From a virus (Duplodnaviria > Heunggongvirae > Uroviricota > Caudoviricetes): DNA of 23,310 nt. The stretch lies in the IMG/VR virus record IMGVR_UViG_2531839433_000004. One strand, given 5' to 3'. The notes below the pieces were generated by a model that was not told the origin of the DNA, did no database searches, and worked only from the letters and a program-made list of their open reading frames with translations. Of this stretch, positions 6,312 through 6,665 are shown in pieces (within the stretch, counting starts at the first letter, position 1; every line of letters begins with the position of its first letter). The position numbers were made by a program, and so were the translations under genes.

Positions 6312-6665
6312 GCTGCAGATCTAAGCGGTCATCGCAACGGTGAAGCGGTAAATCAGAAGATTGCCGCATTCCTGTGCCGTTGTGATGGATTTATAATACC
6401 TATTGCTATTAATCATATCAATACGTATGGGTATCAATCGATAGCATTTGTTGTTATGCTGTTGATACTGAAAAGAATTTAATGTTGAGGTTTTTTGTGA
6501 CATTCGACTCAAAATGGATTTTGCAATTAAATAACCAATTGATAACAATGAAAACATCACGGAGAACTAGATAGGCCAAATTACTTGCCACGAAGATAGT
6601 TGTAAGCGTTGATAACAATGGTATTGAGGAGGGATACCCCCGACAATTGCGTCAGGGGGGAGGGA

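What the first reader, a model, noticed from the sequence alone, without database searches (positions are those of the whole stretch)
6312..6665. Operator-like motifs in the A/T-rich region left of the lipoprotein gene, shared with the cI-cro interval, and a duplicated TTGATAACAATG element
The expected pL/OL region lacks a recognisable N gene. It contains CCTATTGCTATTAATC (~6398), sharing TTGCTATTA with the cI-cro intergenic region (7836, 7857), consistent with operator half-sites for this repressor. It also contains two copies of TTGATAACAATG (6539..6550 and 6610..6621) and an imperfect G/C hairpin CCCCCGAC-aattgc-GTCAGGGGGG (6638..6661) just past the lipoprotein stop.
Basis: seen in the sequence. 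Interest (0 to 1): 0.3.

Follow-up and report, generated by a model that had tools for sequence, protein, structure and literature searches.

The report
Left operator-promoter of a lambdoid prophage
The A/T-rich stretch is the ordinary left control region (pL promoter with repressor operators) of a lambda-like prophage. It is joined to the neighbouring lipoprotein gene by about 170 bp of orphan spacer that carries an unexplained 12-bp repeat and a weak terminator-like hairpin.

Summary

**Operators and pL.** The real unit is a 14-bp pseudo-palindrome, ATAC-NN-ATTGCTAT, not the 9-mer TTGCTATTA. Strong copies lie at 6396-6409 and 6421-6434 (an overlapping alternative is 6415-6428). They sit on a conserved leftward promoter, TTGATA-17-TATTAT (6421-6393). 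Three more copies lie in the cI-cro interval: 7800-7813, 7825-7838 and 7850-7863. Matrices trained only on relatives, or only on the window, find sites only in these two control regions. They do so only in phages that share this repressor's helix-turn-helix. The repressor's DNA-binding domain is closest to that of the phage 434 repressor.

**Spacer.** Positions 6488-6660 have no homologue outside identical prophages (12 of 5,426 E. coli genomes). The spacer holds both TTGATAACAATG copies, at 6539-6550 and 6609-6620. The repeat is non-random (about 0.1-0.6% of shuffles) and does not extend. Its function is unknown.

**Hairpin.** The hairpin (6637-6658, -15 kcal/mol) sits where homologous loci have canonical terminators, but it lacks a U-tract.

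**N and put.** No N gene and no HK022-type put RNA were found.

**In passing.** A widespread covarying RNA hairpin lies in the pL leader (6166-6226).

Verdict: an ordinary new member of a known kind.

The parts
6393..6421 (-). pL promoter. The -35 TTGATA is at 6421-6416, followed by a 17-bp spacer and the -10 TATTAT at 6398-6393. The predicted start is near 6386, reading left into the leader, kil, gam, bet and exo.
   Evidence: The consensus scan gives 10/12 matches. The same TTG(A/C)TA-17-TATTAT architecture is conserved in 4A7, PhiR68_2, the Hafnia MAG and a Klebsiella phage. The start site is inferred, not mapped.
6396..6409 (.). OL1 operator, ATACCTATTGCTAT. It overlaps the pL -10 and the spacer.
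   Evidence: Second-best hit in the whole window for a matrix trained only on relatives, 18.8 bits. It is an exact ATASN6STAT match. Orthologous sites occur in four relatives.
6415..6434 (.). OL2, as two overlapping 14-mers that share the palindromic core ATACGTAT. They are 6421-6434 (ATACGTATGGGTAT, 25 bp from OL1, the spacing seen in OR) and 6415-6428 (minus strand, ATACGTATTGATAT, 19 bp from OL1, the spacing seen in Hafnia and Klebsiella). Both cover the pL -35.
   Evidence: Scores are 16.1 and 16.3 bits. An inverted match to OR3 was found (I1).
6441..6478 (.). Two decayed distal operator positions, 6441-6454 (ACAACAAATGCTAT on the minus strand, 7.3 bits) and 6465-6478 (ATTCTTTTCAGTAT, 5.2 bits). 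They align with stronger sites in relatives, such as 4A7 ATTCTTTTTGCTAT at 15.7 bits and the Hafnia and Klebsiella OL3 at 18 bits.
   Evidence: The block of homology with same-immunity phages runs to about 6487 and, after an 11-bp gap in the relatives, possibly to about 6515.
6326..6387 (-). 5' end of the predicted pL transcript, an imperfect long hairpin. The left edge of the immunity-specific DNA lies at about 6344/6345.
   Evidence: The 67-nt segment folds at -22.6 kcal/mol, z = -4.1. With a slightly different boundary, z = -1.9. The equivalents in 4A7 and PhiR68_2 are not remarkable. The homology breakpoint with PhiR34_1 is.
6488..6660 (.). Orphan A/T-rich spacer (40% G+C) between the OL block and the lipoprotein gene. 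It has no homologue other than identical copies.
   Evidence: blastn against fetched loci. Only 12 of 5,426 E. coli genomes match, all at 100%. No match in 50,697 phage records. Only identical copies in IMG/VR. No Pfam hit for its ORFs. No Rfam hit.
6539..6550 (+). TTGATAACAATG, copy 1. It overlaps an IHF consensus, TATCAATTGGTTA (6532-6544, minus strand). Its reverse complement contains ATTGTTAT, an operator-like half-site.
   Evidence: ATTGTTAT is the right half of 4A7's OL1.
6609..6620 (+). TTGATAACAATG, copy 2. Its reverse-complement context, ATACCATTGTTAT, resembles an operator that is one base pair short. No IHF consensus is present.
   Evidence: The operator resemblance is my reading of the sequence.
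6637..6658 (-). G+C-rich hairpin about 8 nt past the lipoprotein stop (CCCCUGAC-GCAAUU-GUCGGGGG). It is followed by UAUCCCUCCUC, with no U-tract.
   Evidence: -15.1 kcal/mol, z = -3.2. The terminator scan does not call it. Every homologous lipoprotein locus has a hairpin with a T-run at this position.
6666..7052 (-). Lipoprotein cargo gene (lipobox ISGC) in the position that rexAB holds in lambda. It lies downstream of cI on the same strand.
   Evidence: ORF. phrog_16082, unknown function. RefSeq annotates 6666-7046. Same-immunity phages carry other genes here. Homologues lie next to cI or in a P22-like immI region.
7095..7787 (-). cI repressor, with an HTH_3 domain and an S24 peptidase domain.
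   Evidence: Pfam. The 434 repressor DNA-binding domain is the closest solved structure, E from 1.6e-5 to 1.2e-4. The HTH is identical in phages that share the operators.
7795..7866 (.). OR region. OR3 is at 7800-7813, OR2 at 7825-7838 and OR1 at 7850-7863, each 25 bp centre to centre. pRM (minus strand) has its -35 at 7823-7818 and its -10 at 7800-7795. pR (plus strand) has its -35 at 7838-7843 and its -10 at 7861-7866.
6166..6226 (-). Outside the finding. A conserved two-hairpin RNA element in the pL leader upstream of kil. CAUACC is followed by stem 1 (6212-6217 paired with 6197-6202, loop UUCAACGAG), an AUG at 6191-6189, and stem 2 (6178-6182 paired with 6166-6170).
   Evidence: The exact 29-mer occurs in at least 120 IMG/VR contigs. 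All six stem-1 pairs show compensatory changes and 96.9% of cells are paired. It is present in phi80, HK639, HK225 and Salmonella, Klebsiella and Enterobacter phages.

Best explanation
Positions 6312-6487 are the left half of the immunity module of a lambda-like prophage.

A leftward sigma-70 promoter, pL (TTGATA-17-TATTAT), is overlapped by two strong 14-bp pseudo-palindromic operators of consensus ATAC-NN-ATTGCTAT. Two decayed sites follow them. The same 434-class cI repressor, and presumably Cro, binds three sites of this type between cI and cro. In a lysogen, repressor dimers on OL1 and OL2 occlude the -10 and -35 of pL. This keeps the leader-kil-gam-bet-exo operon silent. After RecA-stimulated self-cleavage of the S24 domain, pL fires.

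Positions 6488-6660 are orphan junction DNA. I infer that it arrived with the lipoprotein cargo gene, which occupies the position of rexAB. Its hairpin at 6637-6658 is a degenerate counterpart of the intrinsic terminator that ends the cI-cargo transcript in every related locus. It probably gives partial termination or 3'-end protection, and Rho may complete termination in the untranslated, mildly C-rich spacer. The two TTGATAACAATG copies are most likely a non-functional local duplication or recombination scar.

Shown: sequence, homology blocks, site statistics, conservation, and co-variation of sites with the HTH. Inferred: repressor binding, the transcription start, the terminator function, and the non-functionality of the repeat.
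For: - Promoter.
- Operators: only 4 ATASN6STAT matches occur in 23 kb, and all lie in OL or OR.
- A matrix trained on relatives only puts its top six window hits in OL and OR.
- A matrix trained on the window only finds hits of 12 bits or more solely at OL and OR of same-HTH phages. It finds none in PhiR34_1, phi80 or HK639, and one stray hit each in L017 and L006.
- In OR, 39/42 operator columns are invariant against 41/69 other columns, p = 1.4e-4.
- The HTH is identical in window, 4A7 and Hafnia, differs at two residues in Klebsiella, and is different in PhiR34_1.
- The cI N-terminal domain matches the 434 repressor.
- A 40-nt OL/OR direct repeat and an OL2/OR3 inverted match were found.
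- Gene context is cI (S24 plus HTH), a divergent cro, kil, gam, bet and exo.
- Spacer: it is orphan. Canonical terminators sit at the same place in five homologous loci. C/G is 1.6-2.3 just downstream of the hairpin.
Against: - No binding or transcript data exist.
- The OL2 register is ambiguous between 6415-6428 and 6421-6434.
- The third and fourth OL sites are weak in the window (7.3 and 5.2 bits). Lambda-like cooperative OL occupancy may therefore differ.
- The hairpin has no U-tract, so it fails the standard definition of an intrinsic terminator.
- The C>G bias is modest.
- An exact 12-bp repeat arises in only about 0.1-0.6% of shuffles. This argues that it is not pure chance, but it does not distinguish a scar from a binding site.
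- Site matches at orthologous positions partly reflect common descent. The operator-versus-spacer contrast was quantified only for OR, on four sequences.
Confidence: 0.8

Rival explanations
1. The two TTGATAACAATG copies are functional protein-binding sites upstream of pL. They could be IHF or another architectural site that modulates pL, as IHF does upstream of lambda pL. Alternatively they could be auxiliary repressor or Cro half-sites that assist OL-OR looping or insulate pL from read-through.
For: - The exact repeat is rare by chance, 4/3000 to 18/3000 shuffles.
- Copy 1 overlaps a full IHF consensus, WATCAANNNNTTR. The window has 6 such matches against 1.7 expected.
- The reverse complement, CATTGTTATCAA, contains ATTGTTAT, which is the right half of 4A7's OL1. 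It also resembles CATTGCTATCAA in the Klebsiella OL3.
- The copy 2 context, ATACCATTGTTAT, is an operator that is one base pair short (my reading).
Against: - No diverged homologue exists, so conservation cannot be tested.
- The flanks are unrelated.
- Copy 2 lacks the IHF consensus.
- Neither copy scores as a full operator; both were below the 5-bit threshold.
- The 70-bp spacing is not in helical phase.
- Isolated half-sites are poor targets for dimeric HTH repressors (general knowledge).
- The sites lie about 150-230 bp upstream of the predicted start.
Confidence: 0.15
2. The shared motif is not an operator. It would be a by-product of A/T-rich composition and of similar promoter hexamers in two control regions.
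For: - TTGCTATTA at up to 1 mismatch is at chance level, 10 against 7.4 expected.
- ATASN6STAT reaches 4 matches in 3 of 100 whole-window shuffles.
- The promoter scan is at chance level overall.
Against: - All top-scoring 14-mers cluster in two stretches of about 40 bp that flank cI.
- Sites are invariant while spacers diverge.
- Sites track the HTH sequence, not the flanking DNA.
- The regular 25-bp spacing and the overlap with -10 and -35 match the classic layout.
Confidence: 0.03
3. The spacer 6455-6665 encodes a small protein or a small RNA. Candidates are the 54-aa hydrophobic ORF at 6454-6618 on the minus strand, or a transcript from the promoter-like site at 6692-6665.
For: - ORFs of 21-79 aa exist.
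- The 54-aa ORF has a hydrophobic N-terminal half.
- A 10/12 promoter-like match ends at 6665.
- In homologous loci a small convergent ORF often follows the lipoprotein gene.
Against: - No Shine-Dalgarno sequence precedes the candidate starts (my reading).
- No Pfam hit.
- The convergent ORFs that I translated from three homologous loci are unrelated to each other. The window has no comparable ORF on the plus strand.
- No Rfam hit, even at E <= 5.
- The fold of 6520-6665 is unremarkable, z = -0.55.
- RefSeq annotates nothing here.
Confidence: 0.05
4. Because N is missing, the pL leader carries an HK022/HK639-type put RNA that makes RNA polymerase terminator-resistant.
For: - There is no N gene.
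- A non-coding leader of about 280 nt is conserved across immunity types.
- HK639, which has a put-like RNA, shares the downstream hairpin element.
- A few short put-like strings occur at the 5' end, such as CAACGGC and CAGGAAUGCGGCAAU (my reading).
Against: - A covariance model built from HK022 putL, HK022 putR and HK639 putL finds HK639 putL at 92 bits. It finds nothing in the window leader or downstream of pR. The best window hits are 12.1 and 9.5 bits, with E of 0.5-1.9, and lie inside bet and inside O.
- No blastn similarity to HK022.
- No second copy in the rightward operon.
- The model rests on only three sequences.
Confidence: 0.05

Closest known systems
Phage lambda OL/pL and OR/pR-pRM immunity region
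   Same: A cI repressor with an S24 self-cleavage domain faces a divergent cro. Three operators lie between cI and cro, about 25 bp apart, overlapping pR and pRM. Operators of the same sequence family overlap pL on the far side of cI. A cargo gene lies between cI and OL, where lambda has rexAB. A terminator position follows the cargo gene, as tIMM does in lambda.
   Different: The operators are 14 bp (ATAC-NN-ATTGCTAT), not 17 bp. Only two OL sites are strong in the window. There is no N, nutL or cIII. pL feeds a non-coding leader of about 280 nt and then kil. The cII-like gene carries a YdaT domain and cro is YdaS-like. The hairpin at the terminator position lacks a U-tract.
Phage 434 repressor and its 14-bp operators (ACAA-N6-TTGT)
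   Same: The closest solved structures to the cI N-terminal domain are the 434 repressor DNA-binding domain, E from 1.6e-5 to 1.2e-4. The operator is 14 bp, with conserved outer bases and a more variable centre.
   Different: The outer bases are ATAC/GTAT, and the right half is extended (ATTGCTAT). The specificity is therefore different. Sequence similarity to 434 is only modest (25-28 bits). Binding has not been tested.
Same-immunity phages 4A7, Lambda_4C10, PhiR68_2, D2, 1W, 3W and Perceval, plus a Hafnia MAG prophage and Klebsiella phage ST11-VIM1phi8.2
   Same: cI is 80-98% identical with an identical or near-identical HTH. The OR1-3 sequences are identical or differ at one base. The pL architecture and OL sites are the same.
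   Different: The cargo between cI and OL differs: an ASCH-domain gene plus a hypothetical gene in 4A7, and ParA-like in the Klebsiella phage. These phages have a canonical hairpin-plus-T-run terminator. Their distal OL sites are stronger. None has the 6488-6660 spacer.
HK022/HK639 put antiterminator RNAs
   Same: These are lambdoid phages without N. The element would be expected just downstream of pL.
   Different: No match to a put covariance model or by blastn. No second copy downstream of pR.

Membership tests
Lambdoid immunity region (OL-pL / cI / OR-pR-pRM) | A repressor with an HTH and a LexA-like S24 self-cleavage domain, transcribed divergently from a cro-like gene | tested here: met
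   Pfam gives HTH_3 plus Peptidase_S24 for 7095-7823(-) and YdaS/P22_Cro-like for 7892-8125(+). PHROG 'transcriptional repressor' and 'CI-like repressor'.
Lambdoid immunity region (OL-pL / cI / OR-pR-pRM) | Several copies of one pseudo-palindromic operator on both sides of the repressor gene | tested here: met
   Three sites in OR, and two strong plus two weak sites in OL. These are the top hits of matrices trained independently on relatives or on the window.
Lambdoid immunity region (OL-pL / cI / OR-pR-pRM) | Operators overlap the -35/-10 of outward early promoters and of the repressor maintenance promoter | tested here: met
   pL 6421-6393, pR 7838-7866 and pRM 7823-7795 from the consensus scan. 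Overlaps and conservation in five phages. Promoters are predicted, not mapped.
Lambdoid immunity region (OL-pL / cI / OR-pR-pRM) | Repressor and Cro physically bind the sites and repress pL | not testable with these tools
   Needs EMSA or footprinting and reporter assays.
434-class repressor-operator pair | DNA-binding domain homologous to the 434 repressor N-terminal domain | tested here: met
   phmmer against PDB finds 434 repressor chains (1sq8, 2r63, 1per, 1r63), E from 1.6e-5 to 1.2e-4 over residues 6-67.
434-class repressor-operator pair | The 434 operator sequence ACAA-N6-TTGT | tested here: not met
   The sites read ATAC-NN-ATTGCTAT. The length class is the same, 14 bp, but the specificity differs.
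Intrinsic (Rho-independent) terminator | A stable G+C-rich hairpin | tested here: met
   -15.1 kcal/mol, 8 bp, z = -3.2 on the minus-strand RNA.
Intrinsic (Rho-independent) terminator | A U-rich tract immediately 3' of the stem | tested here: not met
   The tail is UAUCCCUCCUC. The terminator scan does not report it. Homologous loci do have T-runs.
HK022-type put antiterminator RNA | A two-stem RNA of about 70 nt downstream of pL and pR that matches the put sequence and structure consensus | tested here: not met
   The covariance model R1 (three put sequences) gives no hit in the leader. The best window hits have E of 0.5-1.9 and lie in coding regions. blastn is negative. The model is shallow.
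Lambda N / nut antitermination | An N gene with an arginine-rich motif downstream of pL | tested here: not met
   No Pfam or PHROG N hit on ORFs between pL and kil. The ORF list shows only unconserved or overlapping ORFs. A relative (L006) does carry an N_peptide gene at this position.
IHF binding site | The WATCAANNNNTTR core | tested here: inconclusive
   One exact match at 6532-6544(-) overlaps repeat copy 1. Copy 2 has none. A consensus match alone does not show binding.

The most novel reading that the evidence does not exclude
The most novel reading still open concerns the conserved element just left of the finding (6166-6226, pL sense). It consists of CAUACC, a covarying 6-bp hairpin whose loop ends in GAG, an AUG that opens the invariant codons MTTGGHPP(P), and a second hairpin, GGCGG-CCAUCCA-CCGCC.

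Under this reading it is an uncharacterised cis-regulatory RNA or leader-peptide switch that gates expression of kil and the recombination genes. One possible mode is control of Rho-dependent termination; in phi80 the element lies between the annotated tL1A and the Rho-dependent tL1B.

For the finding proper, the novel reading is that the two 12-mers are auxiliary binding sites that tune pL.
Probability: 0.3. Interest if true: 0.6.

Novelty: new member of a known kind. Interest (0 to 1): 0.25.

Why it matters
The analysis defines the operator sequence, the site layout and the pL/pR/pRM architecture of an immunity type for which I found no experimental description. This type is shared by several recently sequenced E. 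coli temperate phages (4A7, 4C10, the PhiR series), a Hafnia prophage and a Klebsiella phage. That helps prophage annotation, prediction of immunity groups and design of orthogonal repressor-operator pairs. It does not change the understanding of lambdoid regulation. The orphan spacer illustrates how cargo genes are spliced in between cI and OL, sometimes with a poorer terminator. The covarying hairpin found in passing may merit its own study.

Tried and rejected
1. **Put RNA.** blastn of the leader against HK022 found nothing. A covariance model built from three put RNAs also found nothing.
2. **Second leader-like copy in the rightward operon.** Only one 15-nt match turned up, at 22665-22679. 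On reading the sequence it looks like part of an unrelated terminator hairpin.
3. **Spacer as a decayed cro leader** (6521-6545 against 7874-7898, D3). The local alignment score is reached by 6.6% of shuffles, so I rejected this.
4. **Longer degenerate repeat around the 12-mers.** The alignment does not extend past 12 bp.
5. **Diverged relatives of the spacer.** Distant blastn against E. coli genomes and against phages found none. IMG/VR pattern scans for the paired 12-mers and for the hairpin found only identical copies, plus two unrelated chance hits: an iteron-like array and a giant-virus coding repeat.
6. **Rfam.** At gathering thresholds only IS009 and ALIL matched, both elsewhere in the window. 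At E <= 5 over 5850-7100 there was a sub-threshold ALIL hit on the wrong strand.
7. **Small convergent ORFs next to the lipoprotein in homologous loci.** The three I translated are unrelated to each other, and the window has no counterpart on the plus strand.
8. **Rho-utilisation signal.** The C/G excess after the hairpin is only modest.
9. **King et al. 2011.** The paper on HK639 put RNAs is not held in the library.
10. **Not used.** The genome contigs and metagenome scans were not run, because the IMG/VR results made new information unlikely.
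Full report
**Context.** The window is a lambda-like prophage, partly rearranged on its right side.

- Reading leftward from the finding are a non-coding leader, then kil (5901-6107), gam (5529-5825), bet and exo, all on the minus strand.
- To the right are a 126-128-aa lipoprotein gene (6666-7052, minus strand, lipobox ISGC), the cI repressor (7095-7787, HTH_3 plus Peptidase_S24), a divergent YdaS-like cro (7898-8125), a YdaT-domain cII-like gene, and the replication genes O and P.
- The stretch 6330-7100 occurs in 12 of 5,426 complete E. 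coli genomes, all at 99.9% identity or more. RefSeq annotates nothing between kil and the lipoprotein gene.

- CCTATTGCTATTAATC is at 6399-6414.
- Exact TTGCTATTA occurs only at 6403-6411 and 7857-7865. The copy cited near 7836 is TTGCTATTG at 7832-7840.
- At up to 1 mismatch the 9-mer is not enriched, 10 matches against 7.4 expected.
- TTGATAACAATG is exact at 6539-6550 and 6609-6620.
- The hairpin folds to -15.1 kcal/mol on the minus-strand RNA, with eight contiguous pairs at 6637-6658 and z = -3.2.

- The loose pattern ATASN6STAT has only four matches in 23.3 kb: 6396-6409, 6421-6434, 7800-7813 and 7850-7863.
- The repeat finder independently reported a 40-nt direct repeat between 6395-6434 and 7824-7863. 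It also reported an inverted match between 6417-6438 and 7796-7817.
- To avoid circularity I trained a weight matrix only on sites read from relatives: the Klebsiella phage ST11-VIM1phi8.2 and a Hafnia MAG prophage. Its six best hits among about 46,600 window positions are all in OL or OR. They are 7850 (21.0 bits), 6396 (18.8), 7825 (17.5), 6415 (16.3), 6421 (16.1) and 7800 (13.0).
- The reverse test used a matrix from the window's own five sites. In 4A7, PhiR68_2, Hafnia and Klebsiella it finds hits of 12 bits or more only at OL and OR. It finds none in PhiR34_1, phi80 or HK639.
- PhiR34_1 is the informative control. It shares the leader to the left (97%) and the C-terminal two-thirds of cI, but it has a different helix-turn-helix.
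- The four phages that share the sites have an identical or nearly identical HTH, GMSQGALAKASGVAQPTIWRLTSGNARGST.
- In a four-phage OR alignment, 39 of 42 operator columns are invariant against 41 of 69 others, Fisher p = 1.4e-4.
- The closest solved structures to the cI N-terminal domain are the phage 434 repressor. Its operators are also 14 bp, which I state from general knowledge.

**Promoters.**

- The consensus scan finds a leftward TTGATA-17-TATTAT at 6421-6393, a 10/12 match. It also finds pR (TTGATT-17-TATTAT, 7838-7866) and pRM (TTGACC-17-TAAATT, 7823-7795).
- Scan counts overall are at chance level, so the argument rests on conservation. TTG(A/C)TA-17-TATTAT is kept at pL in all five same-immunity phages, although the spacer changes.
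- OL1 (6396-6409) covers the -10. OL2 covers the -35 in either of two overlapping registers: 6421-6434, at 25 bp from OL1 as in OR, or 6415-6428, at 19 bp as in Hafnia and Klebsiella.
- Two further positions, 6441-6454 and 6465-6478, align with good sites in relatives but have decayed in the window to 7.3 and 5.2 bits.
- OR1, OR2 and OR3 are 25 bp apart. A weaker conserved site lies in the cro leader at 7879-7892.

**Homology blocks.** blastn against all fetched loci and the alignment divide the finding into three parts.

1. Positions up to about 6344 are leader DNA shared with phages of other immunities.
2. Positions from about 6345 to 6487, possibly to about 6515, are the OL/pL block shared only with same-immunity phages at about 72-74% identity.
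3. Positions 6488-6660 have no homologue in 50,697 phage records, in 5,426 E. coli genomes apart from the 12 identical copies, or in IMG/VR.

The lipoprotein gene itself (6661-7004) has 56-83% identical homologues. Those whose contigs extend far enough lie next to cI genes in Hafnia and other prophages, or in a P22-like immI region. Same-immunity phages carry different cargo at this position. The lipoprotein is therefore a cargo gene ('moron') at the rexAB position, and 6488-6660 is its orphan 3' flank.

**The hairpin.** In each of the five homologous lipoprotein loci whose 3' flank I read, a G+C-rich hairpin followed by a T-run lies within about 50 nt of the stop codon. An example is ACCCGGCCACCGTGCCGGGTTTTT. 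4A7 and PhiR34_1 have the same kind of hairpin after their own cargo genes. The window's hairpin occupies that position but is followed by UAUCCCUCCUC, and the terminator scan does not call it. I read it as a degenerate terminator or a 3'-end stabiliser. The next 45-60 nt have C/G of 1.6-2.3. That is compatible with a contribution from Rho but is far from proof.

**The 12-mer repeat.**

- An exact direct repeat of 12 bp or more appears in 4/3000 (173-bp segment) to 18/3000 (354-bp segment) dinucleotide shuffles.
- It does not extend into the flanks.
- Copy 1 overlaps a full IHF core, TATCAATTGGTTA.
- Copy 1 also overlaps a 17-mer, AAATAACCAATTGATAA, that recurs exactly at 17672-17688.
- The reverse complement contains ATTGTTAT, which is the right half of 4A7's OL1.
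- These are leads only. With no diverged relatives, function cannot be tested by comparison.
- I favour a local duplication or recombination scar, with a real but minority chance of an architectural or auxiliary binding site.
- No convincing ORF, ribosome-binding site, Pfam, PHROG or Rfam signal supports a gene in the spacer.

**The missing N.**

- No N-like ORF exists between pL and kil.
- I tested the known alternative, HK022/HK639 put RNA, with a covariance model built from HK022 putL, HK022 putR and HK639 putL. It recovers HK639 putL at 92 bits but gives nothing in the window's leader or downstream of pR.
- blastn is also negative.
- The leftward operon has a good intrinsic terminator only at 3405-3387. 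The kil-gam-bet-exo genes may therefore not need antitermination. This is an inference.

**Noticed on the way.** The leader contains an element of about 60 nt (6166-6226, pL sense) that is conserved far beyond this phage.

- Its 29-nt core occurs exactly in at least 120 IMG/VR contigs.
- It is recognisable in phi80, HK639, HK225 and Salmonella, Klebsiella and Enterobacter phages.
- The upstream 6-bp stem shows compensatory changes at all six pairs. 96.9% of cells are paired. The covariation score is 0.566 against 0.167 for shuffles (0 of 500 reach it) and at most 0.09 for slid controls.
- G·U pairs place the structure on the pL-sense RNA.
- In many relatives an intrinsic terminator sits immediately upstream. 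In phi80 the element lies between the annotated tL1A and the Rho-dependent tL1B.
- It contains an AUG that opens MTTGGHPP(P). Downstream conserved bases (GCGCAGAAGUCU) are read in three different frames in different variants, which argues against protein-level constraint there.
- No Rfam family covers it.

**Verdict.** The finding is a correct recognition of an ordinary OL/pL region belonging to an uncharacterised, 434-class immunity type. It is a new member of a known kind. The spacer features are real but of unknown and probably minor significance.

Noticed in passing
window 6166-6226 (minus-strand sense); also L145 (phi80) 2501-2558, L144 (HK639) 2501-2547, L017 2501-2587 and L011 2879-2947: A widespread conserved two-hairpin RNA element lies in the pL leader upstream of kil. 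Stem 1 (6212-6217 paired with 6197-6202) has compensatory changes at all six pairs. The 29-mer core is exact in at least 120 IMG/VR contigs. An AUG opens MTTGGHPP(P). In phi80 the element lies between the annotated tL1A and tL1B. No Rfam family covers it.
   Followed up: partly
L011 1975-2640; L017 about 3240-2830 (minus strand); L144 1271-1340: The Hafnia and Klebsiella oxytoca phages share a long (over 400 nt), G+C-rich, apparently non-coding pL leader. Its first 50 nt or so also match the start of the HK639 pL transcript, upstream of HK639's put-like RNA. No Rfam match.
   Followed up: no
window 6529-6545 and 17672-17688: The exact 17-mer AAATAACCAATTGATAA is shared between the spacer and an A/T-rich region. 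That region lies next to what looks like a tRNA 3'-half remnant (about 17597-17672; ARAGORN finds no tRNA) and upstream of a McrBC-like gene pair. Both copies contain an IHF consensus.
   Followed up: partly
window 7879-7892: A fourth, weaker operator-like site (ATTCCTATTGGTAT, about 12-13 bits) lies in the cro 5' leader and overlaps the ribosome-binding site. It is conserved in 4A7, and as ATACTTATAGGAAT in the Hafnia and Klebsiella phages.
   Followed up: partly
window 6496-6511; L001/L002/L003 equivalents: A CRP-like half-palindrome sits upstream of OL. It is TGTGA-N6-TCGCA in 4A7, PhiR68_2 and PhiR34_1, and weaker (TGTGACATTCGACTCA) in the window. TTTTGTGAC is conserved even across immunity types (my reading of the sequence).
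   Followed up: no
window 495-1708, 1311-1427, 1734-2456: An IS3-family insertion sequence (rve transposase, ALIL frameshift pseudoknot at 120 bits) lies next to what appears to be a truncated lambda-type integrase of 240 aa.
   Followed up: no
window 11193-12825 and 13086-23310: The right part of the prophage is mosaic or defective. It holds a PRTase-CE plus NADAR gene pair, NinB, an endolysin remnant and a Q antiterminator gene on the minus strand, an OmpC-like porin, a tail-fibre assembly gene with the Rfam IS009 RNA (17239-17437), and an AAA_5 plus McrBC-like restriction pair at 17814-20914.
   Followed up: no
window 5901-6311 (minus strand): The conserved AUG at 6191 is in frame with kil (annotated start 6107) with no intervening stop. 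A 96-aa N-terminally extended Kil is therefore formally possible in this leader variant. In other variants the same AUG opens only a 16-28-aa ORF.
   Followed up: partly
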